DNA of 64,000 nucleotides from Candidatus Liptonbacteria bacterium (GTDB lineage: Bacteria > Patescibacteriota > Minisyncoccia > UBA6257 > 2-01-FULL-56-20): the NCBI GenBank assembly GCA_016186635.1, contig JACPLI010000020.1:3548-67547 (forward strand), in the 5' to 3' direction. This document shows, one piece after another, positions 4,308 to 48,262 of this stretch (positions are counted from its first letter, which is position 1; every line of letters begins with the position of its first letter). Under the pieces are notes generated by a model, which worked only from the letters and a program-made list of their open reading frames with translations, made no database searches and was not told the origin of the DNA. A program made the position numbers and the translations under genes.

Positions 4308-4390
4308 GTCATTCCCATGAAAATGGGAATCCAGGGTATTGCAACAAAGCCATATTCTGGATCCCCGCGTGCGCGAGGATGACAGGACGT
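4308..4390. repeat. Family-E MITE-like element (TIR gtcattccc ... gggaatgac), copy 1
   Basis: gtcattcccatgaaaatgggaatccagggtattgcaacaaagccatattctggatccccgcgtgcgcgaggatgacagg. The same architecture appears at 17278 and 38513. Confidence 0.65.
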
Positions 4391-16820: not shown

Positions 16821-17311
16821 CTACATTTGTTCCAAAGCCGGGGCAAGTTGATTACACGCACGCTGCGCGCGCGCCAGTCATCAATTGTGTGGTAGAGCAT
16901 GATGGAAAAATTCTGCTTGTAAAGCGGAGCAGGAAACTCAATTTGCATCCGGGAGTATGGAATGGCGTGAGCGGGTTCCTTGACGACGGGAAAAGTCCGA
17001 TGGAGAAGGCGAAGGAGGAACTTCTCGAGGAAGCGGGCATTTCACCGGAGCAGATTATCTCCATGGAGGAGGGAAAGGTTTTTGAGGTGAGAGATGGGGC
17101 ATACGGCAAGACGTGGGTGACGCACCCCGTGCATGTGAAAGTGGCTACCGATGCGGTGAAGCTTGATTGGGAAGCGGAGGAGTATCGGTGGGTTGCGCCT
17201 GCGGAGATAAAAGGATTGGCGCTTACCCCGGGGTTTCTGAACGTATTGGACCAATTCTTCGGCAAAACAGCACACCTGTCATCCCCGCGCACGCGGGGAT
17301 CCATGCCCTAG
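16817..17311 (+). CDS. Nudix hydrolase (second, adjacent)
   Basis: GFLDDGKSPMEKAKEELLEEAGI. The last ~12 codons (HLSSPRTRGSMP*) are encoded by a family-E element. Confidence 0.75.
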   Translation: MTTFVPKPGQVDYTHAARAPVINCVVEHDGKILLVKRSRKLNLHPGVWNGVSGFLDDGKSPMEKAKEELLEEAGISPEQIISMEEGKVFEVRDGAYGKTWVTHPVHVKVATDAVKLDWEAEEYRWVAPAEIKGLALTPGFLNVLDQFFGKTAHLSSPRTRGSMP

Positions 17312-17357
17312 ATTCCCGCTGGAGCCTGCCCTCGACTACGATCGGGGGCGGAAATGA
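17278..17357. repeat. Family-E MITE-like element copy 2 (overlaps the Nudix 3' end)
   Basis: gtcatccccgcgcacgcggggatccatgccctagattcccgc...gggggcggaaatgacaa. Confidence 0.65.
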
Positions 17358-17442
17358 CAAGCATGCATCATGGTGTGAAGGGATAGCTGTGGATAACTCC
17401 GCTTGACGCCCTTTTGTGTGGTGCTACTATTCAAATATTCGT

Positions 17443-23673: not shown

Positions 23674-23689
23674 GTAGAGACACAAAGTT

Positions 23690-25261: not shown

Positions 25262-25339
25262 ACGGCTCATTCATGGTTCCTTCATTTTCTGTGCGTAACT
25301 CTTATTAAAAAGTCGGTTTTTTTTGGTACAATTCACCGC

Positions 25340-26841: not shown

Positions 26842-27255
26842 ATGACGGAGGAGGACTGGAAGCAAAAACTTACCCCCGAACAGTACCGCGTACTCCGCGA
26901 GCAGGGGACGGAAGCCGCCTTTACGGGGAAATATTGGAACGAGCACGGGAAGGGCATGTATCGGTGTGCCGCATGCGGCGCCGAGCTTTTTTCGTCTGAT
27001 ACAAAGTTTGATTCCGGCACTGGCTGGCCGAGCTTTACTGAGCCCGCAAATGTGGCACATGTGGAACTCCGTGAGGACAGGAGCCGCGGGCTCGCGCGCA
27101 CCGAGGTGCGCTGCAAAAAATGCGGCTCTCACTTGGGGCATGCGTTTGACGACGGACCGGTTGACAGGAGCCTGCCTGCCGGTAGGCAGGGGAAGCGCTA
27201 CTGCATCAATTCGGTATGCCTGGAGCTCGAAAGGTCGGGGGATGAGAATCAGTAA
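26842..27255 (+). CDS. msrB: Peptide-methionine (R)-S-oxide reductase MsrB
   Basis: CAACGAELF...GWPSF...RCKKCGSHLGHAFDDGP...RYCINS. An extended -10 tgtataat lies at 26824-26831. It carries an in-frame family-D insertion (SLPAGRQGK). Confidence 0.85.
   Translation: MTEEDWKQKLTPEQYRVLREQGTEAAFTGKYWNEHGKGMYRCAACGAELFSSDTKFDSGTGWPSFTEPANVAHVELREDRSRGLARTEVRCKKCGSHLGHAFDDGPVDRSLPAGRQGKRYCINSVCLELERSGDENQ
27172..27190. repeat. Family-D palindrome CTGCCTGCCGGYAGGCAGG inside msrB
   Basis: cctgcctgccggtaggcagg encodes LPAGRQG, which is absent from canonical MsrB between DGP and RYCINS. Confidence 0.8.
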
Positions 27256-28382: not shown

Positions 28383-28391
28383 TTACCTTTT

Positions 28392-28447
28392 CAACGCGTC
28401 GAAGTCAGACTTCCTGAAGGAAGTCTGACTTCGGCAGATTGATGCAG
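28392..28447. repeat. Family-B palindrome (GAAGTCRGACTTC), copy 1
   Basis: ttcaacgcgtcgaagtcagacttcctgaaggaagtctgacttcggcagattgatg. Confidence 0.8.
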
Positions 28448-29949: not shown

Positions 29950-29988
29950 TAAGGTTTGACCTTGAGAACGCCTAAGGTCGAACCTTAG
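29950..29988. repeat. Family-C double palindrome copy 2
   Basis: taaggtttgaccttgagaacgcctaaggtcgaacctta. Confidence 0.8.
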
Positions 29989-30989: not shown

Positions 30990-31652
30990 ATGAGGTATAA
31001 TAGGAATATGATAAGTGGCAAAGAGCTTTCCGGGATGAGAAAGCGGGCATCGAAAATCATTAGTGTTCTCGGAAAGCTTTTTCCGAACCCAAAAATTGCC
31101 CTGAAGTACGGCAATAACTGGGAATTGCTCGTGGCGGTGCAATTAAGTGCCCAATGCACGGACAAAAAAGTGAATGAGGTAACCCCCGCGCTTTTCAAGA
31201 AATATCGGCGGCTTGAGGATTATGTAAGCGCCAATCCCCGGGAGTTTGAAAAGGATATCCACCAGTGCGGGTTTTTTCGGGCGAAAACGAGGAATATTTT
31301 AGCCGCGGCAAAGGTGGTGCAGGAAAAATTTGGCGGGAAACTGCCGCGCACAATGGAGGAGATGCTCGTGATTCCCGGCATCGGCAGAAAAAGCGCGAAT
31401 GTCATCCTCGGGAACGCCTACGGCGTAGTGGAAGGAATTGCGGTAGACACGCACGTAAAGCGCCTCTCGCGGGTGCTGGGATTAAGTAACGAAAAAACGC
31501 CGGAGAAAGTCGAGAAAGACTTGATGGCGATTATTCCGAAGAAGGATTGGTTCAGGGCGACGTACCTTTTGATTGATTATGGAAGGAAATATTGTTTTGC
31601 AAGGCCGCATCAACACCACCTTTGCCCGTTATCGAAAATTTTGGAGCGGTAA
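30990..31652 (+). CDS. nth: Endonuclease III
   Basis: LLVAVQLSAQCTDKKVN, IPGIGRKSANVILGNAYG, VDTHVKRLSRVLGL. The C-terminal Fe-S Cys motif is incomplete (CFARPHQHHLCPL). The start could also be M at 31008 or 31035. Confidence 0.8.
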   Translation: MRYNRNMISGKELSGMRKRASKIISVLGKLFPNPKIALKYGNNWELLVAVQLSAQCTDKKVNEVTPALFKKYRRLEDYVSANPREFEKDIHQCGFFRAKTRNILAAAKVVQEKFGGKLPRTMEEMLVIPGIGRKSANVILGNAYGVVEGIAVDTHVKRLSRVLGLSNEKTPEKVEKDLMAIIPKKDWFRATYLLIDYGRKYCFARPHQHHLCPLSKILER

Positions 31653-31690
31653 AGGTTTGACCTTGGTTCTGCAAAAAGGTCGAACCTTGG
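31651..31690. repeat. Family-C double palindrome copy 3, immediately at the nth stop
   Basis: aaaggtttgaccttggttctgcaaaaaggtcgaaccttgg. The spacer tctgcaaaaagg is shared with copy 6 at the uvrA stop. Confidence 0.8.
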
Positions 31691-34447: not shown

Positions 34448-36559
34448 ATGCAAAAATTTGAACTCGCAAAAGAGTTGAAGCCAGCAGGTGATCAACCAAG
34501 CGCTATCGAGAAGCTTGTGGCGGGATTGAAGAGGGGATACCAGCATCAGACGCTTTTGGGAGTTACGGGGAGCGGAAAGACGTTTACTGTCGCGAACGTG
34601 ATTGCAAAGATACAGAAGCCGACGCTGGTGATCGCGCACAACAAGACGCTCGCGGCCCAGCTTACGAATGAATTCAGGGAGCTTTTCCCGAAGAACTCGG
34701 TAAATTATTTCGTGTCGTACTACGACTACTACCAGCCGGAGGCGTATATTCCATCGTCCGACACCTACATAGACAAAGAAGCGCTTATCAACGACGAGAT
34801 TGATAAACTGCGCCATGCGGCGACGACGGCGCTCCTCACGCGGCGGGACGTAATTGTGGTTGCATCCGTCTCATGTATCTACGGCTTGGGCGCGCCGGAG
34901 ACGTACGCGGAGAACATTTTCCGGTTCAAGGTTGGAGACAGGGTTGAGCGGAAGAATTTTGCGCGAAAGCTTGTTGAATTGCAATTCACGCGCACGAACA
35001 TAAATTTGAAGCGCGGTACGTTCCGCCTTCGTGGAGAGAATTGGGAAATAATGCCGCCGGACAGGGAAGTGATTTACATGCTCGAAGTGCGAAGTTCAAC
35101 TATCGCGGCGATATATGCAACAGACCCTGTAGTTGGGTTTCAGCCCGGCAAGACACCGCCAGTCGAGGAAGTCATCATTCCTCCGGCAAAACATTTCATT
35201 ACCGAAGCGGACGCGCGCGAGCGGGCAATCGGCTTGATTCAGGAGGAGCTCAGGGTGCAACTCAAGTATTTTGAGGAAAATAAGAAATTTCTCGAAGCCG
35301 AACGGCTCGAGCGCCGTACAAAGTTCGACATTGCGATGATACGGGAGATCGGCTACTGCCACGGCATCGAGAACTATTCGCGGCACCTTTCGGGCCGCGC
35401 GGCAGGTACTCCTCCTGAAACTCTTCTCGACTATTTTATGCAGGGTTCGAAATCGCATTCGGATGCAAAGGTTCGACCTTTAGGGGGTTCTCAAGGTCGA
35501 ACCTTGGAAGAACCCGATTTCCTGACCATAATTGACGAATCCCACATCACCGTGCCGCAGATTCAGGGGATGTATCATGGCGACGCGTCGCGGAAGAAAA
35601 CGCTCGTCGAATACGGGTTCCGTCTTCCCTCCGCCGCGGACAACCGGCCATTGAAATTTGCGGAGTTTGAAAAGCGCATAGGGCAGACGATATATACATC
35701 CGCCACGCCGGGACCGTATGAGTTGAAGAAGAGCGGGGTAAAAGCTCGACCTTTAAGGGATTCTCAAGGTCGAGCCTTGGGAGAAACCGGAGGTCAAGTT
35801 GTGGAGCAAATTATCCGCCCTACTGGCCTCGTAGACCCCAAAATCACCATCCGGCCCGCGCGCGGGCAGGTGGACGACCTGATTCCTCGGATCGAGGAGC
35901 GCGTTGCCGCAAAGGAGCGGGTGCTCGTGACGACGCTCACCAAGAAAATGGCGGAGGATTTATCCGCATATCTCGAAGGAAAGAAAATGAAAGTGGCGTA
36001 TCTCCACAGCGACGTGAAAACGCTTGACCGTATCCGCATTCTTACGAACTTGCGGAAGGGTTCGGAGGCGAAGGGCGGATTCGACGTGCTCGTGGGAGTG
36101 AATCTCCTGCGCGAAGGGCTCGACTTGCCCGAAGTGTCGCTCGTCGCGATTCTTGATGCGGACAAGGAGGGCTTTCTCCGGAGCGAGACCTCGCTCATCC
36201 AGACCATCGGGCGCGCGGCGCGAAACGTGCGCGGAGAGGTTTTGATGTATGCCGACCACATCACGGGTTCGATTAAGCGCGCGGCGGGGGAGACCGAGCG
36301 GCGCCGAAAACTTCAACTTGCCTACAATAAAGAACATGGCATTACGCCGAAGACGGTGATGAAGAAAATCACGAGTATCTTGCCGGAAGAGGTGTTGAAG
36401 CTCGAAATGAAGCCGATTCCGAAATCCAAATCCGCAATAGAGAAGCTTATCCGCGAGAAGGAGCGGGAGATGCGCGAAGCGGCGAAAGAGCTGAACTTTG
36501 AATTAGCGGCGATTTTACGAGATGAGATAAAGGTTCTTAAGAGGAGTAATCGCGAATAG
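34448..36559 (+). CDS. uvrB: Excinuclease ABC subunit B
   Basis: GVTGSGKTF, DESHVT-like IDESHITVPQ, QTIYTSATPG, VVEQIIRPTGLVDP, and a C-terminal UVR motif. Two in-frame family-C insertions. The stop codon lies inside a family-A repeat (KRSNRE*). Confidence 0.95.
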   Translation: MQKFELAKELKPAGDQPSAIEKLVAGLKRGYQHQTLLGVTGSGKTFTVANVIAKIQKPTLVIAHNKTLAAQLTNEFRELFPKNSVNYFVSYYDYYQPEAYIPSSDTYIDKEALINDEIDKLRHAATTALLTRRDVIVVASVSCIYGLGAPETYAENIFRFKVGDRVERKNFARKLVELQFTRTNINLKRGTFRLRGENWEIMPPDREVIYMLEVRSSTIAAIYATDPVVGFQPGKTPPVEEVIIPPAKHFITEADARERAIGLIQEELRVQLKYFEENKKFLEAERLERRTKFDIAMIREIGYCHGIENYSRHLSGRAAGTPPETLLDYFMQGSKSHSDAKVRPLGGSQGRTLEEPDFLTIIDESHITVPQIQGMYHGDASRKKTLVEYGFRLPSAADNRPLKFAEFEKRIGQTIYTSATPGPYELKKSGVKARPLRDSQGRALGETGGQVVEQIIRPTGLVDPKITIRPARGQVDDLIPRIEERVAAKERVLVTTLTKKMAEDLSAYLEGKKMKVAYLHSDVKTLDRIRILTNLRKGSEAKGGFDVLVGVNLLREGLDLPEVSLVAILDADKEGFLRSETSLIQTIGRAARNVRGEVLMYADHITGSIKRAAGETERRRKLQLAYNKEHGITPKTVMKKITSILPEEVLKLEMKPIPKSKSAIEKLIREKEREMREAAKELNFELAAILRDEIKVLKRSNRE
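35467..35507. repeat. Family-C double palindrome copy 4, in-frame inside uvrB
   Basis: aaaggttcgacctttagggggttctcaaggtcgaaccttgg encodes KVRPLGGSQGRTLE, which is extra relative to canonical UvrB between LxDY and IDESH. Confidence 0.85.
35740..35779. repeat. Family-C double palindrome copy 5, in-frame inside uvrB
   Basis: aaagctcgacctttaagggattctcaaggtcgagccttgg encodes KARPLRDSQGRALG, inserted between YELKKSG and GQVVEQIIRPTGL. Confidence 0.85.
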
Positions 36560-36590
36560 CGCGAATTTGGATTTAATAACGCGAATAAAT
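36541..36590. repeat. Family-A repeat (half-element) copy 4 at the uvrB stop
   Basis: gaggagtaatcgcgaatagcgcgaatttggatttaataacgcgaataaa. Confidence 0.75.
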
Positions 36591-36995
36591 CTCTTGCCCA
36601 TTTTATCCACAGGAAAGGGTTAGTTGTCCACCGATTCTCCACATTTTTTACTTGACTTTTTGAAACGAGGCGGGAAAATTATTACGGTTCCTAGGATCGC
36701 GCACAACTTCCGTTCAAAGTAATTTTTCACCACAAGAACCCGAAGCATGACGCGCCTGTGGGTACGTCATTGAGGGTCAAAACTTGTGAAACCGGCGGAG
36801 GAGTTTGAGCGCGAGACGAAGAACCAAGATAGAGTTTCCTGCACAGCCGCAGGAAACTCTCCGTATAACCAAACTTTTATCTACCACCGCCCCCGCAGGC
36901 GGTTTTAATTTTTTCCGGTGTTCTGCTACACTTTCTCTTGCTACCCCCTATGCATCACATGAAGGGGGCGATTTGCATGTTGCGGAATCAATTTC

Positions 36996-37011
36996 GGGAA
37001 GTCGGACTTCC
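36996..37011. repeat. Family-B palindrome copy 3 upstream of uvrA
   Basis: gggaagtcggacttcc. Confidence 0.7.
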
Positions 37012-37037
37012 AAACATTGGGAGCTAATCCAAAAACT

Positions 37038-39725
37038 ATGCATAACAAGATAATCATTCGCGGCGCCCGCGAGCATAATTTGAAGAACATCACGCTCGAG
37101 ATTCCGCGCGATAAAATGACTGTGTTCACCGGGCTTTCCGGCTCGGGGAAGTCGAGCATGGCGTTCGACACGATTTTCGCCGAGGGACAGCGCCGCTACA
37201 TCGAGTCGCTCTCCGCGTATGCGCGGCAGTTTTTGGGGCGGCTCGATAAACCGGACGTGGATGATATTGAGGGGCTCTCGCCCGCAATCTCGATTGATCA
37301 GAAAAGCCATTCCCACAATCCGCGTTCGACGGTGGCAACCGTGACCGAGATTTATGACTATCTTCGCGTGCTCTTCGCCCGCGCGGGGAAGCCCCACTGC
37401 CCAAAGTGCGGCAGGGAAATCCAGAAGCTTACGAACGAGGAGATTGTGGATGTCGCCGTCCAAATCTCGAATGAGAATAAGTCAAAGAAAAACATCGTGA
37501 TTCTTGCGCCGGTCGTGCGTGGACGGAAAGGGGAATACTATCAGCTCCTCTACGACTTCTTGAACGCCGGGTTCTCCGAGGTGCGCGTGGACGGGGTTTA
37601 CAAAACGCTCCGCGAGCGAGTGGAATTGAGCAGATATAAAGCGCACTCGATTGATTTGGTAGTGGACCGCATTCCGGCGGGAATTGATTTTTCCGACAAA
37701 GATGCGCGGCTTCGACTTGCGGAGGCGGTTGAGATGGCCTTGAAATACGGGAATGACGTGGTGACGGTTGTGACCGACAAGGAAGTCTCGCTCTCCGCGA
37801 AGTTTACCTGTCCGAACGACGGGTTCTCGTTTCCCGAAATCGAGCCGCGGCTTTTCTCGTTCAACAGCCCGTACGGCGCGTGCCCCCAATGCCACGGGCT
37901 GGGCACGGAAGATGTGTGGTCCGAAAAGATTTGCCTGGTGTGCGCGGGGAAGCGTTTGAAAGAAGAAAGTTTGGGGGTATTGATTAACGGTAAAAGCATA
38001 GCTTCGATCGCGGCGCTATCGATTGGGGATGCGTATATGTTTTTTGAAAAATGGGAAGCATCAATAGCGGGGAAGTCGGACTTCCCGAGGAAGTCCGACT
38101 TCCAAAAATTGGCCTTGAAGGAGATCGCGGAAGCCCCGCTCCGCGAAATAAAAAACCGTCTGAAATTCATGATTGACGTGGGGCTCGAGTATCTCACGCT
38201 CGAACGCCGGGCGGGGACGCTCTCCGGCGGGGAAGCGCAACGAATCCGGCTTGCCTCGCAAGTGGGTTCTCGGCTCGTGGGCACGCTCTACATTTTGGAC
38301 GAGCCGACCATCGGGCTTCACCAAAAAGATAATGCGAAGCTCATCAAGACGCTTCACGACCTGCGTGATTTGGGGAACACGATTGTGGTCGTCGAGCACG
38401 ACGAGGAGACAATTCGGGAGAGCGATTATCTCGTAGACTTTGGTCCCGGCGCGGGTATTCATGGGGGGAAAGTGGTGGCGCAGGGGGCGATTCCAGAGCT
38501 GTTGGGACCAGTGTCATTCCCGCGCACGCGGGAATCCAAGGTATCACAGGGAACTCTGGATTCCCGTTTTCACGGGAATGACAGAAAAGTTCTTACTCGG
38601 CAAAGTCAGGTTTTGAAAGATTCTCTCACTCTTCAGTATTTGCATGGCAAGAAGTTTATTGAAATCCCGAAAGAGCGCCGCGGCGTCGGCAAGGGGACGA
38701 AGCTTATTTCCATCAAAGGCGCGAAAGAAAATAATCTCAAGAACATCGACGTGGCGATTCCCGTGGGGCGGCTTACGGCGGTGACCGGCGTTTCGGGTTC
38801 GGGGAAGTCGAGTTTGGTCTACGACGTGCTCTATAAGACGCTCGCGAATAAGTGGCACGGGGCGAGTTACAAGGAGGGCGCGCATAGCGGAATTTTTGGA
38901 TTAGAGCACATAAATCGAGTGATCAACATTGACCAGTCGCCGATTGGGCGCACGCCGCGCTCGAATCCCGCGACGTATGTGGGTGCGTGGACGTTTGTTA
39001 GAGACCTCTTCGCGGCGACCCCCGACGCAAAAGTGCGCGGCTATAAGCCGGGGCGGTTCAGCTTCAATGTGCCGGGCGGCCGGTGCGAGAACTGCGAAGG
39101 GCACGGCACGCTCGCCATCGAGATGCATTTCCTCCCCACGGTCTACGTGCAGTGCGACATCTGCAAAGGCAAGCGCTTCGACCGAGAGACGCTTGCGGTG
39201 GAGTACCGATCCTCCGCTAAAGCTATGGACGGCAGGCAAAGCAAAAATATATACGAGGTTTTGAAACTCACGATTGAAGAGGCGGTGAAGTTTTTTGATG
39301 AAATCCCGTGGCTCGCGGACCGATTGAAGATTCTGGACGAAGTGGGGCTCGGATACCTCGAACTCGGGCAGTCCGCGACGACCCTCTCCGGCGGAGAAGC
39401 CCAGCGCGTGAAGCTTGCCTCGGAGCTGGGGAAGCGCGACACCCGCCGGACGCTCTACTTGCTCGACGAACCCACGACGGGGCTTCACTTTGCGGACGTG
39501 GACAAATTGCTCCAAGTTTTACAGCGCCTTGTGGGCAGAGGGAATACGGTCGTCGTCATCGAGCATAACTTGGATGTCATCAAAACCGCGGACTGGGTGA
39601 TTGACCTTGGCCCCGAAGGAGGAGAGAAGGGCGGCGAAATTGTCGCCGCGGGCACGCCCGAAGAAATCGCGCGAAAGAAAGGGAGCTTTACGGGGGAGTA
39701 TCTGCGGAGGGTTCTCCAAGGTTAA
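37038..39725 (+). CDS. uvrA: Excinuclease ABC subunit A
   Basis: [18 protein letters not shown], two ABC ATPase modules (GLSGSGKSS / [17 protein letters not shown] x2), and Zn-finger Cys motifs. In-frame family-B and family-E insertions. The stop lies inside a family-C repeat. Confidence 0.95.
38070..38108. repeat. Family-B palindrome copy 4, in-frame inside uvrA
   Basis: gggaagtcggacttcccgaggaagtccgacttcc encodes [12 protein letters not shown]. Confidence 0.85.
38513..38583. repeat. Family-E MITE-like element copy 3, in-frame inside uvrA
   Basis: gtcattcccgcgcacgcgggaatccaaggtatcacagggaactctggattcccgttttcacgggaatgac encodes [24 protein letters not shown]. Confidence 0.85.
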
Positions 39726-39754
39726 ACCTTGAATCTGCAAAAAGGTTTAACCTT
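39715..39754. repeat. Family-C double palindrome copy 6 at the uvrA stop
   Basis: ccaaggttaaaccttgaatctgcaaaaaggtttaacctt encodes the final LQG*. Confidence 0.8.
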
Positions 39755-39778
39755 ACATTGAAATAGGGGCGATTCGCG

Positions 39779-40447
39779 TTACTTCAACCCCAAGATATTT
39801 TTAGCAATGGCCGGCACCTCGCGGCGGAAATATGCCTTTATTTCTCCCCACGTCGCCTTAAAGAAAAGGGTTGGCATAGGGTCGTCTTCCGCCTCCGTAA
39901 AATAAGTTAAGCTTTTGATGAAGTGCGGGAAGTTCAGATTTTTTGTTGGATAGTGTTCTTGCACGCGAGAGAGAATGTCGCAAAGCGGCTCCCGATTTTT
40001 GACATACCAGTACAGGTCAACAAAATCGCGCTTGCGGCAACGCTGACTGATTGCAATAATCTTCATCACCGCAATATCTTCCGGAGGAAGGATTTTAACG
40101 GTGCCGAAACGCGTGAATGTTCCTGAAGCGACGAAAAAGGGATAGGCGATAAAACTCGCTTTTGCTCCCGCATACTCTCCGTATAATGTGCCGGCGGTTG
40201 CCGATGTTGTGTTCCAATCGCCAGTTTTGAGAAGTACCCCTTCGAGCGCAAGCCGGTCAAACTCGGCTTCCGGCGTGAAAAAATCCAAATCAACGGACTG
40301 GCGATGTCCGACTTGCAGCGCGAGCGCCGTGCCCCCCGCGAGATACCAGCCGCCTCCGCGAAAAAGCGGCATCTTTGAGAATGTTTCAAGCGCGTGCTTG
40401 GTGTCCGCAGGCAATGCCTCAAAATGGAATCCATCAACTTGTTGCAT
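39779..40447 (-). CDS. AbiEii/AbiGii-family nucleotidyltransferase toxin (type IV TA)
   Basis: LFRGGGWYLAGGTALALQVGHRQSVDLDFF matches the DUF1814 signature. Start taken at internal M42 of the track ORF (±3 nt). Confidence 0.65.
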   Translation of the reverse strand: MQQVDGFHFEALPADTKHALETFSKMPLFRGGGWYLAGGTALALQVGHRQSVDLDFFTPEAEFDRLALEGVLLKTGDWNTTSATAGTLYGEYAGAKASFIAYPFFVASGTFTRFGTVKILPPEDIAVMKIIAISQRCRKRDFVDLYWYVKNREPLCDILSRVQEHYPTKNLNFPHFIKSLTYFTEAEDDPMPTLFFKATWGEIKAYFRREVPAIAKNILGLK

Positions 40448-40464
40448 GGTGTGCGGTACCGTTA

Positions 40465-40740
40465 TCAAGCAAACACAAGTTTCCACAATGCTCGCGATTG
40501 CGGCTGCAGCACGCGAGAGGTGAGCACTACCTTCTTGATGAGCGACTTGGGATAATACGCCGCCATCCATCGCAACTCGTCGTCTCTTCCGAAATCCAGA
40601 ATCCGCTCAATCACATAGACCGCGTGTTTCTTCGGGTCAATCGTCTTCGGGTCAACGTCCCAAAAAAGCGATTGCCGAAATCGCATTGCGGGCGTGGCGC
40701 TTTTTTTCGCGACCTTCATGTGTCGCCTATATTTTAGCAT
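40465..40740 (-). CDS. Putative cognate antitoxin / partner of the AbiEii-like toxin (91 aa)
   Basis: Lies immediately upstream on the same strand. Basic N-terminus. No motif could be named. Confidence 0.35.
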   Translation of the reverse strand: MLKYRRHMKVAKKSATPAMRFRQSLFWDVDPKTIDPKKHAVYVIERILDFGRDDELRWMAAYYPKSLIKKVVLTSRVLQPQSRALWKLVFA

Positions 40741-40794
40741 TTTTTACTCATTCTTTCTAATTTATTTCTCTCGGTTTTTTTGTTGCTCCGGATT

Positions 40795-40826
40795 CCGAAG
40801 TTGGACTTCCGGGAGGAAGGATTGTG
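40795..40826. repeat. Family-B palindrome copy 5
   Basis: ccgaagttggacttccgggaggaagg. Confidence 0.6.
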
Positions 40827-40868
40827 ATTGTACTTTCTTCCCTCTGATTGAGAAGCCGGAAGCGGGAT

Positions 40869-41300
40869 TTATTTTTCTTTTCCGACGAATGCGCGCACCT
40901 GCCGCGTATATTCCCCAAAATCGCCGTAGTTTTTCTTCGTATTTCGCACAAAGAGAGCCCTATCCAGTTTTTCGTATTGGTGCACAATCATGTTTCGCAC
41001 GCCGACAATCGGAGCTATTGTGAACGCAAAGTTTTTCTCTATCACATTCATCTCGCCAAGCAAGCGGAAGGTGCCCTCCAAATCGTCCGGCGCGCCAAGG
41101 TGTTTTTCCTTGATGATGTGCCGGTTGATATCTATCATGGCGTCAACTGCGAGCTGAAAAACCCGCTCAAGCGCGTGATATTTAACACTATCTTTCAAAA
41201 TATCGTCGTCCGAGAACTCGGCAACAAAGGGCTTTATTTCTCCCACATAACCTGCCAGCAGATGCAGCTTTTTCTCCACAAGCGCAAAATCGAGCGTCAT
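40869..41300 (-). CDS. hepT: HepT-like HEPN toxin (DUF86)
   Basis: Rx4-6H HEPN motif RNMIVHQY near the C-terminus. Overlaps the upstream MNT gene by 4 nt. Confidence 0.75.
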   Translation of the reverse strand: MTLDFALVEKKLHLLAGYVGEIKPFVAEFSDDDILKDSVKYHALERVFQLAVDAMIDINRHIIKEKHLGAPDDLEGTFRLLGEMNVIEKNFAFTIAPIVGVRNMIVHQYEKLDRALFVRNTKKNYGDFGEYTRQVRAFVGKEK

Positions 41301-41698
41301 AGTTTTGAAAGCGTGTAATCAAGGAAATCCCTTCGCAGTTCAAACAATATTTCTGCATCATCGTAGTTCCGGAGCGCATATAAATATGCCTCGTTAAAAA
41401 GCGATTGACTTCGCTCATACAGCACCACCGCATTCGTCACGATCTGCTTCGCGAGAAGCGGGGGCGCAGTTTTCAGATTCACGAGCGACACCTTGTCGTT
41501 CCGAAAAACCTCCGTCAGGTCGAAATTCAAAAGCACCTCATCGTCAAACGAGAGTTTTTTGTCCGCGAGATATGCCACGTCCACATCGCTTTCCTTGTGC
41601 GTCTGCCCTGTTGCCTGCGAGCCGAAAAGCACGACCAACGAAAGGCCGTATTTCTCGGCAAGCGCGGCGATATGGGGTTGTGTTGATGCAATATTCAT
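41297..41698 (-). CDS. mntA: MntA-like minimal nucleotidyltransferase antitoxin
   Basis: GSQATGQTHKESDVDVAY matches the NTase fold GS...D.D motif. Confidence 0.8.
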   Translation of the reverse strand: MNIASTQPHIAALAEKYGLSLVVLFGSQATGQTHKESDVDVAYLADKKLSFDDEVLLNFDLTEVFRNDKVSLVNLKTAPPLLAKQIVTNAVVLYERSQSLFNEAYLYALRNYDDAEILFELRRDFLDYTLSKL

Positions 41699-42330
41699 GT
41701 GATTTCATCGTACCATGTTTCTCTAAATGCTCCAATAACCCTTATTTTATAATGGTTTCCGACTTGTCCTGAGCTTGCCGAAGGAGAGACGATTGACAAG
41801 ATAGCATAAAGTATGCTATATTTACACCGTTATTTTGCAGTTCTTTCACACAGCAAAATCGTTTGAACCCCGTTGTTGTACGAGAATAGCACCATGCTAG
41901 TCACTAAGTCCTAATGGCTAAGTTCTAGTGGCTGTCATTGAGCTATTCTCGTGTGAGCGTAGCCAGTATCTTCGCCTCCTGTCTCTTTTGAGAGAATGGA
42001 CGAACGGTATCGCGCTACCGCAACAGCGCATCTCCATTTCCGATGACCTCAGTGGACCGCTGGGTTCGAAACTCGGGCAATGCCCGAGTAATGGTGCAGT
42101 GGGATGATCAAACTGGAAGGGTTCCAGCACTCATCCTTTCCACCCATTACCATGGGGATGGTGGCGGGCAGGATGCCCGCTTCGTGCGGATTCAGATTGG
42201 AAAACCCCTCTATTTTTCGCCCGCAATGTAAAAATGTGCGGGCACGCCGAAAGGCAATGGAGACGACTGAATCCTGTAGATTCGGTCAGGTGGAGCCCTG
42301 AGCTACGTCGAAGGGCTCCACCAATCTCTA

Positions 42331-42439
42331 CTGTTCTCGGTTCCAACGAGGGAGTTACATTTCTTCCTAAAAATAAAAAATTGAAAACATTGATGGGGCG
42401 AAAGAGTCAAAAACTCAATCGCCCCGCTCAATTGAGTCC
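42331..42439 (+). repeat. Cassette-array direct repeat R1 (~110 nt, ends in a conserved stem-loop plus CTCAATTGAG palindrome)
   Basis: ctgttctcggttccaacgagggag...ttcctaaaaa...ggggcga-loop-tcgccccgctcaattgagtcc. Confidence 0.75.
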
Positions 42440-42667
42440 ATAAGCGAAAGTTTGTGGATTCATAGAGCAAGCAGTTCTTTCAAATCAATAAAATTGGAAT
42501 CTGGAAGAATTCGTTGCTGCACTTGTAGGAAGCGCAAAGATTATCAAAATAGTTTTTGCGCTTCCTATGAGGAACGCAGGCGATATCGGCGGGCCGCAAA
42601 CATGCCGATAAACTTCACGCCCACTGGAAAGGCGCTATGCCAAGTCCTACGGGCACGAGGAGATAGT

Positions 42668-43429
42668 ATGGAAAATAACCAGCAGAATCAGTCGTATCGG
42701 GTATTCACCATCAATTCCGGGAGCATCACCGAAGGCGCGCCGGTTCAGATGGTGAAAATCGCGCAAGGGACAGTTGAGATTTTCGCGGTCACGGTCGGGG
42801 AGAGTGGCCGTGGGCGCCAACTCGGTATGGTCCCGGTGGACCGGCCGCCGCACACGGCTTGCTCGAACCGGAATCGAGAAATGTCCGGCGAAAAGTGCGA
42901 CAAATGCGGTGTCGCGCTTGAGAATGGCAAGCACCCGGACAAAGGAGAGGTGCCGGGGCGGCTCATGTTCGCGGAGTTGGGGCAGACAAAGTCCGGGAAA
43001 CCCAAACTTTTCTCGAAACCGTCGGCGACTTCGGATGAAAAGGTCATCGCTGTTTTCAGTACGATGATTGGTTTCCGGGGCGGCAATTCGCATACCGGAG
43101 ACCGCGCGGGGTGGACTTGTTCGTGCGGTGAGTCTGCTGACACCGCCAGGCCGGAAAAGTGCCCCAAGTGCGGTGGGACTGAAGGTCTGAAGAATAAATT
43201 CGCGCAGTTTCCTGGTGAGATTATCTGCCAGGGTACCATCGCCGAAGGAGACGCGGGGCGGATGGGGAGCGGCGAGCAGCTCGTCGCGTTCATGCCGAAG
43301 GATGTGGTTTTCCGAACATCCTACTCGGGGCGGCTCTATGGGAAGCCGGGTGCCCACTATTACAAGTGGACTGGCGAGAAATTCCTCGCCGCCACGTGGG
43401 AAGATCGGTCGGCGGCGGATCTGTTCTAG
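42668..43429 (+). CDS. Hypothetical Cys-rich protein with two Zn-ribbon-like CxxC pairs (253 aa)
   Basis: CDKCG...CSCGESADTARPEKCPKCGG. RBS aggagatagtATG. Start reset to M73 of the track ORF. Confidence 0.5.
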   Translation: MENNQQNQSYRVFTINSGSITEGAPVQMVKIAQGTVEIFAVTVGESGRGRQLGMVPVDRPPHTACSNRNREMSGEKCDKCGVALENGKHPDKGEVPGRLMFAELGQTKSGKPKLFSKPSATSDEKVIAVFSTMIGFRGGNSHTGDRAGWTCSCGESADTARPEKCPKCGGTEGLKNKFAQFPGEIICQGTIAEGDAGRMGSGEQLVAFMPKDVVFRTSYSGRLYGKPGAHYYKWTGEKFLAATWEDRSAADLF

Positions 43430-43523
43430 GTTCCAATCGGGAGAAGGAAAACTTCCTAAAAACAAACCAAAAAACATTTAGCGGGCGATTGGGAAAACCT
43501 GATCGCCCCGCTCAATTGAGTCC
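43421..43523 (+). repeat. Cassette-array direct repeat R2
   Basis: ctgttctaggttccaatcgggag...ttcctaaaaa...gggcgat-loop-atcgccccgctcaattgagtcc. Confidence 0.75.
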
Positions 43524-43583
43524 GTCGCGCCGTGAGTACGGAATGCGGTGGCCTCAACAGAGTGGTTGCTACTTTACAACTTT

Positions 43584-43916
43584 ATGAAAAGAATAATCGT
43601 CCAAAAGGCGACGGATTTCTGGCCAACCTACGACCCTAAGAAATGGGTTGCCTTCGAGGAGGGGAAAAACCCATCGGAGGGGAGTACGGGCAGTACTTTT
43701 GGGTTGGCGGCCATGGCGCTCGCTGCGAACGTGGCCGATGAGAGCGAAATACCGCCGATGCAGGTACGCATCACGGTAACGCTCAATCGGCCAAGGGATG
43801 CGGTACTCATGGTTTGGAAGTTTTTCCTCGCTTTTCTGAAGCTGCTATTTGGGGAAAAGCAGATTCGGATAAGTATGGATCCCTTGTCGATGTTTGTCGA
43901 CAAGGTACAGCGTTGA
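43584..43916 (+). CDS. Hypothetical protein (110 aa)
   Basis: ORF immediately downstream of R2. No recognisable domain. Confidence 0.4.
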   Translation: MKRIIVQKATDFWPTYDPKKWVAFEEGKNPSEGSTGSTFGLAAMALAANVADESEIPPMQVRITVTLNRPRDAVLMVWKFFLAFLKLLFGEKQIRISMDPLSMFVDKVQR

Positions 43917-43925
43917 AATTTTTGC

Positions 43926-43967
43926 GGGCGAGTGGTTCTATTCCATTCGCCCCGCTCAATTGAGTCC
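43926..43967 (+). repeat. Cassette-array direct repeat R3 (3' module only)
   Basis: gggcgagtggttctattccattcgccccgctcaattgagtcc. Confidence 0.7.
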
Positions 43968-44038
43968 GAGAGTGAAAGATTCTCGCGAGCTGAACAGAGC
44001 GATTTAAAAATAAAAACGTGAAAGGAGGTGAAAAGCAA

Positions 44039-44302
44039 ATGCTGAAAATCCCGAAAAACGGGGCGGAAATCCAAACGGTCAAAGGGATACAATATCTCGT
44101 TGCCCGGCTGGATGCGCAGAAAACCTGCGCGGACTACCTGAACGCGCTTCGGAGAGGAGAGACCGTGGTTGTGCCGCTTTCAAAAAGGACACATCTCACG
44201 GGGCTTCTTAAGAGGGAATCCATTTTTACTCGGCAAAAGACACTTGTTGCCGGGAAATGGATCTCTTTCACTCCGTGTGAAGAAAGGGAGTTCAAGCCTT
44301 AA
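44039..44302 (+). CDS. Hypothetical protein (87 aa)
   Basis: Strong RBS aaggaggtg 8 nt upstream of the ATG. A terminator follows. Confidence 0.45.
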   Translation: MLKIPKNGAEIQTVKGIQYLVARLDAQKTCADYLNALRRGETVVVPLSKRTHLTGLLKRESIFTRQKTLVAGKWISFTPCEEREFKP

Positions 44303-44362
44303 CTGCGGCTTTGGCACGCGGGGCAGAGCGACTGCCTGGCAACGGAATTGTCGCAAAAATTT

Positions 44363-44395
44363 GGAGGTGCAAAAACGCACCTCCTTTTGCTTTTT
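44363..44395 (+). terminator. Rho-independent terminator
   Basis: ggaggtgc-aaaaac-gcacctcc followed by ttttgcttttta. Confidence 0.8.
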
Positions 44396-44420
44396 ATACG
44401 ACGGGGTATACTCCAAGCGC

Positions 44421-45761
44421 ATGACTGATTTTGACCTGCCTGCTGGCAGGCAGGGAAAATTAAAAGACAAAGTGATACATGATTTTCCGGAGACGCCGGG
44501 GGTGTATACGATGCGGGGTGCAACAAAAAAGGTGCTTTACATCGGCAAAGCGGGAAATTTGCGGCGGCGGGTATCAAGCTATTTTCTACGCGCACACGAC
44601 GCGCGAATCGAGCGACTGATGCAGGAAGTGCGGGAGATTAGCTACGAGGAAACGGATACCGCGCTTGAGGCGCTCATTCTCGAGTCAAAACTCATTAAGG
44701 AAAAGCATCCGGTTTATAACATCCGCGAGCAGGATGACAAAAGTTTTCTCTATGTGGCGATTACGCGCGAGGCGTTCCCGCGGGTGCTCCTCGTGAGAGG
44801 AAAAGATTTCAATGCGGGAAGGATTAGCCTTCTGAAGGAGGCTAAGCCTTCCAAAGCATTCGGGCCATTTACCTCCGGCACGAGTATCCGCGAGGCGCTA
44901 CGGATTTTGAGAAGGATATTTCCGTGGAATACGCATAGGTTAGAAGGTGGAAAGGTGGAAAGGTTAGAAGCGGAGAAGCGGCCATGCTTCGATTACGAAG
45001 TGGGCTTGTGCCCGGGGACGTGTATCGGGGAGATAGATAAAAAAGAGTATCGCAAAAATATACACCGCCTCATAGACGTTTTTGAGGGAAAGAAGAAACG
45101 AGTGTTACTCGGGCTGGAGCGCGAAATGAAGAAAGCGAGTAAAGCGTTGGAATTTGAGAACGCCGCAAAACTGCGGAAACAGATTTTCGCGCTGAAGCAC
45201 ATACAGGATGTGGCGTTACTGAATCAAGATGCCCCAAGGTTTAACCTTGAGGATTCGAAGGTTAAACCTTCGATACGGATTGAAGGATATGACATCTCGA
45301 ACATTTCCGGGACTTCGGCGGTGGGTGCGATGGTAGTTTTTCTAAACGGGGAGCCGGCGAAAAGCGAGTATCGGAAATTTAAGATTTGCACGGTTGCGCA
45401 ATCCGATGATATCGGGATGCTCGAAGAGGTACTGCGAAGGAGGTTTAGGAGACATGGGGCGGAGGATGTTAAGGTTCAACCTTTCGGCACATCAAGGTTG
45501 AACCTTTGGGCGATGCCGAATCTTATTTTGGTTGACGGCGGGAGGGGACAAGTGAACGCGGCGCGGGAGGTGCTTGCAGAGGCGGAGCTCCGAATCCCGC
45601 TCGTGGGCATTGCGAAGGGACCGGAACGGAAAAGGAATGATGTCATCGGCAGAGTTCCAGTGGGGGTCTCGCTCGCCACGCTCATCAGAGTCCGCGACGA
45701 GGCACACCGGTTTGCGATTCGGTATCACAGAAAACTCCGAAGAACCAGGGCGTTTGAGTGA
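44421..45761 (+). CDS. uvrC: Excinuclease ABC subunit C, short form lacking the C-terminal HhH domain
   Basis: GIY-YIG N-terminus PGVYTM...VLYIGKAGNLRRRVSSYF, UVR motif, RNase H-like endonuclease domain, and EAHRFAIRYHR near the end. Three in-frame repeat insertions. Confidence 0.9.
   Translation: MTDFDLPAGRQGKLKDKVIHDFPETPGVYTMRGATKKVLYIGKAGNLRRRVSSYFLRAHDARIERLMQEVREISYEETDTALEALILESKLIKEKHPVYNIREQDDKSFLYVAITREAFPRVLLVRGKDFNAGRISLLKEAKPSKAFGPFTSGTSIREALRILRRIFPWNTHRLEGGKVERLEAEKRPCFDYEVGLCPGTCIGEIDKKEYRKNIHRLIDVFEGKKKRVLLGLEREMKKASKALEFENAAKLRKQIFALKHIQDVALLNQDAPRFNLEDSKVKPSIRIEGYDISNISGTSAVGAMVVFLNGEPAKSEYRKFKICTVAQSDDIGMLEEVLRRRFRRHGAEDVKVQPFGTSRLNLWAMPNLILVDGGRGQVNAAREVLAEAELRIPLVGIAKGPERKRNDVIGRVPVGVSLATLIRVRDEAHRFAIRYHRKLRRTRAFE
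44435..44453. repeat. Family-D palindrome in the uvrC N-terminus
   Basis: cctgcctgctggcaggcagg encodes LPAGRQG. Confidence 0.8.
45236..45272. repeat. Family-C double palindrome copy 7, in-frame inside uvrC
   Basis: caaggtttaaccttgaggattcgaaggttaaacctt encodes PRFNLEDSKVKPS. Confidence 0.85.
45471..45509. repeat. Family-C double palindrome copy 8, in-frame inside uvrC
   Basis: aaggttcaacctttcggcacatcaaggttgaacctttgg encodes VKVQPFGTSRLNLW. Confidence 0.85.
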
Positions 45762-46427: not shown

Positions 46428-46519
46428 AGGAGTATTCGCGCCGTGCCTGCCGGCAGGCAGGAATAATGCTAATATAGATTCAATAATGCGAATCCATTCG
46501 CGTTATTGGCGATTACTCC
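46428..46519. repeat. Family-A repeat copy 5 with nested family-D palindrome
   Basis: aggagtattcgcgccgtgcctgccggcaggcaggaataatgctaatatagattcaataatgcgaatccattcgcgttattggcgattactcc. The right arm supplies MAITP at the FAD-oxidase start. Confidence 0.8.
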
Positions 46520-48170: not shown

Positions 48171-48262
48171 TGCGAATGGGGGCAAATAATGCGAATGAAG
48201 AAGCATAAGAAGAAATAATTTGCATTATTGAAATTACAATTTGCATTATTCGCGATTACTCC
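48153..48262. repeat. Family-A repeat copy 6 (full two-arm)
   Basis: aggagtaatcgcgaataatgcgaatgggggcaaataatgcgaatg...tttgcattattgaaattacaatttgcattattcgcgattactccc. Confidence 0.85.

What the first reader, a model, noticed from the sequence alone, without database searches (positions are those of the whole stretch)
35467..45509. Rickettsia-RPE-like palindromic elements inserted in-frame into uvrA, uvrB, uvrC, msrB and a Nudix gene
Four distinct palindromic repeat families occur inside essential ORFs without breaking the frame.
- Family C (AAGGTYGAACCTT x2, ~40 bp): twice in uvrB (35467, 35740), twice in uvrC (45236, 45471).
- Family B (GAAGTCGGACTTC): in uvrA (38070).
- Family E (~70 bp, TIR gtcattccc/gggaatgac): in uvrA (38513) and at a Nudix C-terminus (17278).
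- Family D (CTGCCTGCCGGCAGGCAGG, encoding LPAGRQG): in msrB (27172) and uvrC (44435).

Each insertion adds 7-25 residues at positions where canonical UvrA/B/C and MsrB have short loops (judged from memory of E. coli sequences). The same elements also occur intergenically at 15955, 29950, 31651, 39715, 28392, 28877 and 4308, so they are mobile or proliferating.

In-frame peptide-coding palindromic elements are classically described in Rickettsia. Finding several independent families doing this in one 64-kb window of a different lineage is unusual.
Basis: partly seen in the sequence, partly recalled or inferred. Interest (0 to 1): 0.7.

Follow-up and report, generated by a model that had tools for sequence, protein, structure and literature searches.

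The report
In-frame palindromic repeats in CPR genes
A candidate-phylum (Liptonbacteria) genome carries several families of tiny hairpin-forming repeats, many inserted in frame into DNA-repair genes; this is known from Rickettsia and other bacteria, but I found no report of it for this large group, where it appears widespread.

Summary
All listed repeats exist at the stated coordinates and far exceed chance. Alignments to solved structures and to five syntenic relatives show they are lineage-specific, frame-preserving insertions of 6-33 residues in UvrA, UvrB, UvrC, MsrB and a Nudix C-terminus.

The window is a Candidatus Liptonbacteria (Patescibacteria/CPR) MAG.

- **Family E** meets every defining feature of the known CGTC-1 REP family (Neisseria dRS3, Rickettsia RPE-6).
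- **Families B and C** are one untagged double-arm hairpin type (AAGGT-N3-ACCTT, inverted twice). A genome scan hit its 119-locus limit; about 76% of loci carry CPR names. The arm centres are complementary in 112 of 128 copies. Sixty-five percent lie inside long open frames, including tRNA synthetases, SecA and DNA ligase.
- **Insertion signature:** no target-site duplication, no GTAG/CGTC tag, and no strand bias relative to the host gene.
- **Hot spots:** sister genomes carry different families at the same protein loops.

The best explanation is selfish REP-like hairpin elements, filtered by selection to in-frame, stop-free copies in tolerant linkers. In-frame REPs in uvrABC were already described in other phyla (Di Nocera 2013). 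I therefore rate this a new variant of a known kind, of moderate interest.

The parts
34448..36559 (+). uvrB host gene (703 aa)
   Evidence: E about 1e-229 to solved UvrB. 100% identical to an NCBI Candidatus Liptonbacteria UvrB, P0001.
35468..35505 (.). Family C element in uvrB site 1, between DYF and FLTIIDESH; total insert 35447-35518, 24 aa relative to L003
   Evidence: Present in the window, L001 and L124; empty in L003. The 26 arm nucleotides are identical in all three carriers although third codon positions are only 56% identical.
35741..35778 (.). Family C element in uvrB site 2, between PYELKKS and VVEQIIRP; +13 to +19 aa
   Evidence: Only the window has it. L001, L124 and L125 carry a different palindrome there (PSTGSG). 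L003 and L126 are empty.
37038..39725 (+). uvrA host gene (895 aa); it lacks the roughly 113-aa insertion domain of solved UvrA
38070..38112 (.). Family B double hairpin (GGAAGTCGGACTTCC cga GGAAGTCCGACTTCC plus a shared tail CAAAAATTGG) in uvrA; +13 aa
   Evidence: Four relatives are empty. L126 has a family C element at the same site.
38512..38583 (.). Family E (CGTC-1-type REP dimer) in the linker between the two UvrA halves; the insert here is 24-33 aa
   Evidence: L124 has a family C element at the same site. L001, L003 and L125 are empty.
39207..39236 (.). 30-nt insert in uvrA ([10 protein letters not shown]); not palindromic now, with a half-D-like CGGCAGGCA; a related insert is present in L126
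39718..39754 (.). Family C element overlapping the end of uvrA; its TAA (39723-39725) is the uvrA stop codon
44422..45761 (+). uvrC host gene; the start at ATG 44422 is inferred from the orthologue
44435..44454 (.). Family D palindrome in the uvrC N-terminus (LPAGRQG, +7 aa relative to L003)
44817..44852 (.).
45236..45270 (.). Family C element in uvrC, just before the endonuclease domain
   Evidence: L003 has a segment of about the same length here (one residue shorter), so the insert is older or has been replaced.
45471..45506 (.). Family C element in the uvrC endonuclease domain; +13 aa relative to solved UvrC
   Evidence: L003 has an SRLNL-type remnant at the same site.
26842..27255 (+). 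msrB host gene
27171..27190 (.). Family D palindrome in msrB (LPAGRQG; +6 to +7 aa)
17278..17358 (.). Family E element forming the last roughly 11 codons and the stop of Nudix gene 16817-17311; the protein is about 13 aa longer than in L126
15957..15992 (.). Family C, intergenic
29951..29986 (.). Family C, intergenic
31652..31688 (.). Family C, abutting the stop codon of ORF 30990-31652
28391..28442 (.). Family B, long form, inserted between two genes that overlap in L001
28879..28963 (.). Family B, long form, with a second palindrome nested in its loop; lies between genes
36998..37010 (.). Single family B arm upstream of uvrA; shares the 3' tail CCAAAMATTGG with the copy inside uvrA
46442..46461 (.). 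Family D, intergenic
4308..4383 (.). Family E, intergenic
10093..10122 (.). Family G (TCCGCCnnnGGCGGA twice; SAKGGSASGGK) inside ORF 9958-11850; the same family is inserted in UvrA of L001 and L125

Best explanation
The window holds several families of short (20-80 bp), non-autonomous, hairpin-forming repeats of the REP/RPE kind that multiply within Patescibacteria genomes.

How it most likely works:
- New copies land throughout the genome, without a target-site duplication and without a recognisable target motif.
- Copies inside genes survive only if the net length change is a multiple of three, the frame used has no stop codon, and the site is a tolerant loop or inter-domain linker.
- Surviving copies are read through and add 6-33 residues, or replace the C-terminus and the stop codon.
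- Because few loops in conserved proteins tolerate this, the same loops are hit again and again by different families in sister lineages.

Shown here: the insertions, the empty sites, the repeat families, the hairpin covariation, the absence of duplications and tags, and the broad distribution in CPR genomes.

Inferred only: the mobility mechanism. It may be recognition of the single-strand hairpin by a tyrosine/HUH-type or other enzyme, or copying during replication or repair. Translation of the inserts is also inferred.
For: 1. Repeats far exceed chance.

2. DNA-level empty sites exist in relatives at about 80% nucleotide identity for uvrB site 2, the three uvrA sites, msrB and two uvrC sites. 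Seven of nine window-specific insertions of at least 6 aa in shared orthologues are palindromic repeats.

3. Different families occupy the same site in different genomes:
- uvrA 38070: family B in the window, family C in L126.
- uvrA 38513: family E in the window, family C in L124.
- uvrB site 2: family C in the window, family H in L001, L124 and L125.
- Among 120 UvrB homologues, the site 1 linker is 3-36 aa and site 2 is 7-34 aa, with many unrelated peptides.

4. A genome scan for the C architecture hit its 119-locus limit. About 90 loci carry CPR names. Only 4 hits occurred in 2.9 million viral contigs.

5. The arm centres are complementary in 112 of 128 copies, against 1 in 64 by chance, with many different triplets. 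Families B and C differ by two compensatory pairs.

6. All three phases are used (15/21/47). Both loop orientations occur on the host gene's coding strand (44 against 32, p=0.2), giving different peptides.

7. Intragenic copies have more stop-free frames than the others (3.75 against 2.96 of 6).

8. Hosts are unrelated housekeeping genes: class I tRNA synthetases, PheT, SecA, NAD-dependent DNA ligase, RNase H, UvrA, UvrC, SMC, TsaD and MiaA.

9. Intergenic copies lie between co-directional or convergent genes, and some supply stop codons. This matches what is described for REPs (PMC3733652).

10. Family E matches CGTC-1 REPs, with 95% identity to N. gonorrhoeae copies over 72% of the query.
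Against: - No mobilising enzyme was found. A tblastn search with recalled IS200 and IS608 TnpA sequences against 0.98 Mb of fetched DNA gave nothing. No transposase family appeared among the 25 of 61 window Pfam families that the tool lists. Both are weak negatives.
- No filled/empty polymorphism was seen between near-identical assemblies (L001 against L002, L003 against L004), so recent movement has not been observed directly.
- The uvrB site 1 element is far better conserved than neutral sites across three genomes. Pure junk DNA would not predict this unless copies are homogenised or were re-inserted.
- Net insert lengths do not equal element lengths, so the insertion events are not cleanly reconstructed.
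- Translation of the inserts has not been shown.
Confidence: 0.7

Rival explanations
1. The hairpins are functional cis-elements kept by selection, and the coding insertions are a tolerated by-product. Possible roles are a binding site for a CPR nucleoid, segregation, uptake or methylation factor, or an mRNA structure that slows ribosomes at domain boundaries or controls mRNA decay.
For: - The 26 arm nucleotides of the uvrB site 1 element are identical in three genomes whose third codon positions are only 55-58% identical. The probability is about 1e-7 at a neutral rate and about 3e-3 at the mean gene rate.
- The AAGGT/ACCTT arms and a weak loop consensus are shared across many CPR classes.
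- 128 of 154 copies found with a relaxed search have perfect arms.
- From my memory of the UvrA and UvrB structures (not tested here), several inserts lie at domain boundaries: both uvrB sites and the uvrA inter-half linker. only place them at gaps in the alignments to solved structures.
Against: - Presence and absence vary among close relatives, and different families replace each other at one site.
- Copies show no fixed position relative to gene starts or ends.
- Mismatches on the sense strand show no G-U excess over A-C (5 against 4), so there is no sign of RNA-level selection. The counts are small.
- No Rfam family matches.
- Conservation could also come from gene conversion among many copies, or from repeated insertion at a hot spot.
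Confidence: 0.12
2. The palindromes are not mobile. They arise and are perfected in place by replication template switching at quasi-palindromes, or by hairpin-mediated repair, in lineages with reduced repair capacity.
For: - There is no target-site duplication and no target motif.
- The arms are nearly always perfectly complementary, with compensatory changes.
- Net insert lengths differ from element lengths.
Against: - The same sequence of about 38 bp, including loop features, recurs at unrelated loci in the window and in scores of genomes.
- Family E is 95% identical to Neisseria copies.
- Local mutation cannot produce the same sequence at many sites. Template switching could still explain how the arms stay perfect after insertion.
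Confidence: 0.08
3. The inserts are adaptive peptide modules, selected for what they add to the proteins. For example, they might change UvrABC activity and so mutation rate, as Di Nocera et al. speculated for REP-tagged repair genes.
For: - Repair genes are repeatedly decorated, both here and in other phyla (PMC3733652).
- The inserts persist in conserved proteins.
Against: - One DNA family is read in all three phases and both orientations, giving unrelated peptides: KVRPL, QGRTL, RSDL and RFNL.
- Hosts span unrelated functions.
- Identical elements are also intergenic.
- The enrichment of repair genes in this window simply reflects a window that is a repair-gene cluster.
Confidence: 0.05
4. 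The repeats are assembly or binning artefacts.
For: None found. The window is a metagenome-assembled contig, so this had to be considered.
Against: - The same element sits at the same uvrB site in independent assemblies from NCBI, ENA and a re-assembly (window, L001, L002, L124).
- L001 and L002 are 99.995% identical over 22 kb, including the elements.
- The reading frames stay intact.
Confidence: 0.01

Closest known systems
CGTC-tagged REPs, family CGTC-1 (Neisseria dRS3; Rickettsia conorii RPE-6), Di Nocera et al. 2013, PMC3733652
   Same: Family E has the TGTC tag variant, the 8-bp stem ATTCCCGC/GCGGGAAT starting with AT, the 4-nt loop and the CCA tail, arranged as an inverted dimer. Its termini are near-identical to N. 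gonorrhoeae and Sphingopyxis copies; the Sphingopyxis copy lies inside ileS. That paper describes in-frame copies in repair genes and stop-codon donation.
   Different: The host is a Patescibacteria genome. The paper lists five phyla for CGTC repeats, and CPR is not among them. There are only three copies in 64 kb. The tag is TGTC in all three window copies.
GTAG-tagged REPs, BIMEs and REPINs mobilised by RAYT tyrosine transposases
   Same: Families B, C and D are 20-40 bp palindromes, often as two inverted units able to form one long hairpin. They fall into sub-families with compensatory stem changes, lie between co-directional or convergent genes, and have no target-site duplication.
   Different: There is no GTAG or CGTC tag (6 and 3 of 128 copies, which is chance level). 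No RAYT was found. 65% of copies lie inside long open frames, whereas REPs are mainly extragenic. Each arm is itself a near-palindrome (AAGGT-N3-ACCTT).
Rickettsia palindromic elements, the long RPE-1-type families of about 100-150 bp (Ogata et al. 2000, as summarised in PMC10969869)
   Same: They are selfish palindromic repeats inserted in frame into unrelated conserved genes, at sites compatible with protein fold. There are several families per genome.
   Different: The elements here are 3-5 times shorter. They are read in any phase and orientation rather than encoding one conserved peptide. They are spread over many CPR classes rather than one genus.
Mitochondrial double-hairpin and repetitive hairpin-forming elements (Allomyces DHEs, yeast GC clusters, sponge RHEs; PMC2800124)
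   Same: They have a similar size and double-hairpin design, several families and patchy distribution. The Allomyces elements lack flanking duplications.
   Different: They occur in organelle genomes. There is no sequence relationship. In sponges they lie mainly in intergenic regions.
MITEs mobilised by DDE transposases (Correia elements, QMITE1 and QMITE2 of Coxiella; PMC5896051, PMC10969869)
   Same: They are small non-autonomous repeats with inverted ends that can overlap or extend ORFs.
   Different: MITEs are 100-400 bp and make direct-repeat target duplications. None are seen here.

Membership tests
CGTC-1 REP (dRS3 / RPE-6), applied to family E | Unpaired terminal tetranucleotide CGTC (variants TGTC and CCTC are accepted in the paper) | tested here: met
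   TGTC precedes ATTCCC or ATCCCC at 38512, 4307 and 17277. GACA closes the other end. The definition is from PMC3733652.
CGTC-1 REP (dRS3 / RPE-6), applied to family E | 8-bp stem beginning with AT, 4-nt loop, short unpaired tail fitting CCA | tested here: met
   38516-38538 reads ATTCCCGC GCAC GCGGGAAT CCA. 4312-4334 reads ATTCCCAT GAAA ATGGGAAT CCA.
CGTC-1 REP (dRS3 / RPE-6), applied to family E | Units mostly paired in inverted orientation as dimers | tested here: met
   All three window copies are inverted dimers of 70-81 bp.
CGTC-1 REP (dRS3 / RPE-6), applied to family E | Sequence similarity to described members | tested here: met
   95% identity over 72% of the query to N. gonorrhoeae, with 39 places in that record. 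There are also matches in Azospirillum, Cupriavidus and sphingomonads. No direct comparison with Rickettsia RPE-6 sequence was made.
GTAG REP / REPIN-RAYT system, applied to families B, C and D | Conserved GTAG at one end of the palindrome | tested here: not met
   GTAG lies within 8 nt of an end in 6 of 128 family C copies and CGTC in 3 of 128, which is chance level. Flank logos carry at most 0.3 bit.
GTAG REP / REPIN-RAYT system, applied to families B, C and D | A cognate RAYT (IS200/IS605-like Y1 transposase) gene flanked by the repeats | tested here: inconclusive
   tblastn with recalled IS200 and IS608 TnpA found no hit in 0.98 Mb of window plus loci. No transposase appeared among the listed window Pfam families. 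The whole genome was not available.
GTAG REP / REPIN-RAYT system, applied to families B, C and D | Predominantly extragenic location | tested here: not met
   83 of 128 family C copies are spanned by an open frame of at least 150 codons, against 84% for random positions. In the window, 5 of 9 copies are inside CDS and 2 more touch stop codons.
Rickettsia palindromic elements (long families) | Length of about 100-150 bp encoding one conserved peptide per family | tested here: not met
   Elements are 20-81 bp. One family is read in three phases and two orientations.
Rickettsia palindromic elements (long families) | In-frame insertion into unrelated conserved genes at structurally tolerant sites | tested here: met
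   Gaps occur in all solved homologues exactly at the inserts. Hosts include tRNA synthetases, SecA and DNA ligase. Surface exposure itself was not verified because the AlphaFold model was too poor.
DDE-type MITE | Target-site duplication flanking terminal inverted repeats | tested here: not met
   Adjacent direct repeats occur at chance frequency: 33 of 135 copies have at least 1 nt and only 3 have at least 3 nt.

The most novel reading that the evidence does not exclude
A previously undescribed, untagged hairpin superfamily (two inverted AAGGT-N3-ACCTT or GAAGT-N3-ACTTC arms) is specific to Patescibacteria. It spreads by a duplication-free, hairpin-dependent mechanism without a RAYT and lands almost as often in coding as in non-coding DNA.

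On this reading it is a main source of length variation in CPR housekeeping proteins (tRNA synthetases, SecA, ligase, UvrABC). There is recurrent same-site turnover at inter-domain linkers, and the arms are actively kept perfect by conversion or self-templating.
Probability: 0.35. Interest if true: 0.7.

Novelty: new variant of a known kind. Interest (0 to 1): 0.55.

Why it matters
- **Genome evolution.** If general, a sizeable share of the lineage-specific insertions in CPR housekeeping proteins would be selfish hairpin DNA rather than adaptation.
- **Practical consequences.** This affects how CPR proteins are aligned for phylogeny and modelled, and how their streamlined genomes are interpreted.
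- **Range of a known family.** The CGTC-1 (dRS3/RPE-6) repeat family would now reach a sixth, very divergent phylum.
- **Natural experiment.** The recurrent same-site insertions show which loops in UvrA, UvrB, UvrC and tRNA synthetases tolerate extra residues.
- **Open question.** The duplication-free, tag-free, enzyme-less spread is the same unresolved problem as for CGTC repeats. The small CPR genomes could make it tractable.

Tried and rejected
- **AlphaFold2 of UvrB** from 25 close homologues gave mean pLDDT 53. It was too poor to place the inserts on a surface and was not used.
- **Exact-protein look-up** of the window's own UvrB found no contig. The source genome could not be fetched whole, so no genome-wide census was possible.
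- **G-U against A-C mismatch asymmetry** on the sense strand, to separate RNA-level from DNA-level selection, gave 5 against 4. The counts are too small to decide.
- **Strain-level filled/empty polymorphism.** L001 against L002 and L003 against L004 are essentially identical, so there was nothing to compare.
- **Transposase search.** tblastn with IS200 and IS608 TnpA sequences recalled from memory found nothing. The Pfam overview of window ORFs lists only 25 of 61 families, none a transposase.
- **Viral contigs scan** gave 4 hits only, so the elements are not commonly carried on viral contigs.
- **Rfam at gathering thresholds** found only the tRNA.
- **Literature searches** for CPR, Patescibacteria or Parcubacteria together with palindromic, MITE, REP or in-frame terms found no report of this in the held library. 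The library is incomplete, so prior description elsewhere is not excluded.
- **DNA-uptake-sequence reading:** considered and rejected, because these are length-adding insertions rather than motifs created by point mutation.
- **Spliced-out mini-intron reading:** considered and rejected, because frames stay open and stop-free through the elements.

Full report
**1. Observation**

- The 13-mer AAGGTYGAACCTT (at most 1 mismatch) gives 22 strand-hits against 0.14 expected.
- GAAGTCGGACTTC gives 15 against 0.05 expected.
- The 19-mer CTGCCTGCCGGCAGGCAGG occurs at three loci against none expected.
- Family E has three copies, at 4308-4383, 17278-17358 and 38513-38582.

Reading the sequence shows a common design. 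Family C is two 13-nt arms in inverted orientation, separated by 9-12 nt. Family B has the same design with GAAGT...ACTTC arms. Family D is a single 20-bp palindrome. Family E is two small hairpins in inverted orientation. All fold as strong single-strand hairpins, with z-scores from -4.6 to -7.5, and about -2.4 to -3 for the short family D.

**2. Source and host genes**

The UvrB protein is 100% identical to an NCBI entry named Candidatus Liptonbacteria, and all close homologues are Patescibacteria. The window is largely a DNA-repair and redox neighbourhood. It encodes Nudix proteins, MsrB, HhH-GPD glycosylases, MGMT, methylpurine glycosylase and UvrA, UvrB and UvrC.

**3. The segments are insertions**

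Alignment to solved structures places gaps in the structures exactly at the elements.
- UvrB residues 332-356 and 429-447.
- UvrA residues about 343-357 and 490-527, plus a third 10-residue insert.
- UvrC ORF residues 434-446.
- Seven residues in MsrB.

Five syntenic relatives were fetched: L001, L003, L124, L125 and L126. They are 74-80% identical to the window in uvrA and uvrB at the nucleotide level. Codon alignments show empty sites at the DNA level for these positions:
- uvrB site 2;
- the uvrA family B, family E and third inserts;
- the msrB family D copy;
- the uvrC family D copy and a newly noticed C-like copy at 44817-44852.

In an unbiased screen of shared orthologues, seven of the nine window-specific insertions of at least 6 residues are palindromic repeats.

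The orthologue in L003 supports ATG 44422 as the uvrC start, so family D is in frame there. At two gene ends the elements replace the terminus. The C copy at 39718 supplies the uvrA stop codon. The E copy at 17278 supplies the last roughly 11 codons and the stop of a Nudix gene.

Independent assemblies carry the same elements, so these are not assembly artefacts.

**4. Turnover and hot spots**

Different families occupy the same protein loop in different genomes.
- uvrA position 38070: family B in the window, a family C element in L126, and nothing in the other four.
- uvrA position 38513: family E in the window, family C in L124, and nothing in three genomes.
- uvrB site 2: family C in the window, another palindrome (PSTGSG) in L001, L124 and L125, and nothing in two genomes.
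- uvrB site 1: family C in the window, L001 and L124, an unrelated remnant in L125, and nothing in L003.

Across 120 UvrB homologues the site 1 linker ranges from 3 to 36 residues and the site 2 linker from 7 to 34, with many unrelated peptide types.

**5. Distribution of the C architecture**

One genome-collection scan for AAGGT-N3-ACCTT, a gap of 8-13 nt, and AAGGT-N3-ACCTT hit its 119-locus limit. About 90 loci carry Patescibacteria names from many candidate classes, 9 are unclassified, and 20 carry other names. The same scan of 2.9 million viral contigs gave four hits.

Analysis of the 128 copies gave these results.
- The two free central triplets are perfectly complementary in 112 copies, against 1 in 64 by chance, and they use at least 18 different triplet pairs.
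- Families B and C differ by exactly two compensatory pairs.
- 83 copies (65%) are spanned by an open frame of at least 150 codons, against 84% for random positions in the same loci.
- Host proteins include class I tRNA synthetases, PheT, SecA, NAD-dependent DNA ligase, RNase H, UvrA, UvrC, SMC, TsaD and MiaA.
- All three phases are used (15/21/47).
- Both loop orientations occur on the host gene's coding strand (44 against 32, p=0.2). The resulting peptides are unrelated, for example KVRPL, QGRTL, RSDL and RFNL.
- Intragenic copies have more stop-free frames than the rest (3.75 against 2.96 of 6).

**6. Mechanistic clues**

There is no target-site duplication, no conserved flank and no GTAG or CGTC tag for family C. 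This argues against DDE-type MITEs and against membership of the two tagged REP super-families.

No Y1 transposase was seen in the 0.98 Mb at hand. That is a weak negative.

The 26 arm nucleotides of the uvrB site 1 element are identical in three genomes whose third codon positions are only about 56% identical. The hairpin is therefore kept intact by selection, by conversion among the many copies, or by re-insertion at a hot spot.

A test for G-U excess on the sense strand, which would point to RNA-level selection, had too few mismatches to decide.

**7. Explanation**

I conclude that these are selfish REP-like hairpin elements. Selection removes all intragenic copies except those that are in frame, stop-free and in tolerant linkers. 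That filter explains both the clean frames and the repeated use of the same loops. The enzyme or process that copies them remains unknown. Translation of the inserts is inferred from the open frames, not shown.

**8. Comparison with what is known**

Family E meets every defining feature of the CGTC-1 family of Di Nocera et al. 2013:
- a TGTC tag variant;
- an 8-bp stem beginning with AT;
- a 4-nt loop;
- a CCA tail;
- an inverted dimer.

It is 95% identical over 72% of its length to N. gonorrhoeae copies.

The same paper already reports short REPs in frame in uvrA, uvrB, recBCD, polA and dnaE2 of several phyla, dimers encoding 20-30 residues, and REPs donating stop codons. The general phenomenon is therefore known.

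What I did not find in the held literature:
- any report for Patescibacteria;
- the untagged AAGGT-N3-ACCTT and GAAGT-N3-ACTTC superfamily;
- its near-random spread across coding and non-coding DNA;
- the same-site turnover among sister genomes.

**9. Verdict**

The finding is a new variant of a known kind. Interest is moderate (0.55). A specialist in bacterial repeats would not be surprised by the principle, but would be interested in its scale in CPR genomes and in the enzyme-less, tag-less family.

Noticed in passing
window 3999-4084 and 4194-4214: The 21 nt at 4194-4214 are an exact inverted copy of the 3' end of tRNA-Tyr (4062-4082). A 38-bp perfect palindrome (4242-4279) and a family E copy follow. 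This may be an integration scar.
   Followed up: no
window 16820-25340: About 8.5 kb is absent from the syntenic regions of L001 and L003, which go directly from the first Nudix gene to the orthologue of ORF 25340-26014. Among other ORFs, the segment holds a second Nudix gene (16817-17311).
   Followed up: no
window 31889-32914: This ORF (orthologue of the L001 gene annotated PF01972, SDH_protease) is 96.8% identical in protein to L001, while neighbouring genes are about 70-85% identical. This suggests recent transfer or unusually strong constraint.
   Followed up: no
window 2880-2910, 3362-3427, 3949-3980, 36575-36586, 46462-46507, 48166-48250: The 12-mer AATAAYGCGAAT occurs 15 times against 0.6 expected, mostly as pairs about 19-20 bp apart at gene boundaries. 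ATTCGYRCGAAT palindromes occur 5 times against 0.04 expected. They look like promoter or operator motifs rather than the insertion elements.
   Followed up: partly
window 37038-39725 and 44422-45761: UvrA lacks about 113 residues corresponding to 2R6F residues 304-416 (the insertion domain). UvrC ends right after the RNase H-like endonuclease domain, with no C-terminal helix-hairpin-helix pair. The relatives share the short forms.
   Followed up: partly
L026:2225-5746(-), L074:1990-5037(-), L031:233-2635(-): CPR tRNA synthetases carry whole extra domains inside them. There is a His_Phos_1 domain in an Ile/Val-type synthetase (aa 516-680), a NUDIX domain in LeuRS (aa 407-537) and an NlpC/P60 domain in PheT (aa 360-429).
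   Followed up: no
window 10093-10122; L001 about 13200-13240; L125 uvrA: Family G (TCCGCCnnnGGCGGA, peptide GSASGG) sits in frame in window ORF 9958-11850. It occurs once in UvrA of L001 and twice in tandem in UvrA of L125, at the same loop.
   Followed up: partly
window 28391-28442 and 28879-28963: Two long family B copies lie at junctions where the orthologous genes of L001 overlap by 4 nt, pushing the genes of the cluster apart. The second copy has another palindrome nested in its loop.
   Followed up: partly
L132 301-377 (Sphingopyxis indica pMC4): A CGTC-1 dimer very like window family E lies inside the annotated ileS gene of a proteobacterial plasmid. This is another in-frame case outside CPR.
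   Followed up: no
L009, L055, L064, L104, L116, L123 (Bacteroidota): Bacteroides and Phocaeicola genomes hold AAGGTGGCACCTT...AAGGTGCCACCTT hairpins with a distinct loop (TGCCTACCA). They probably form a separate repeat family that shares the arm ends.
   Followed up: no
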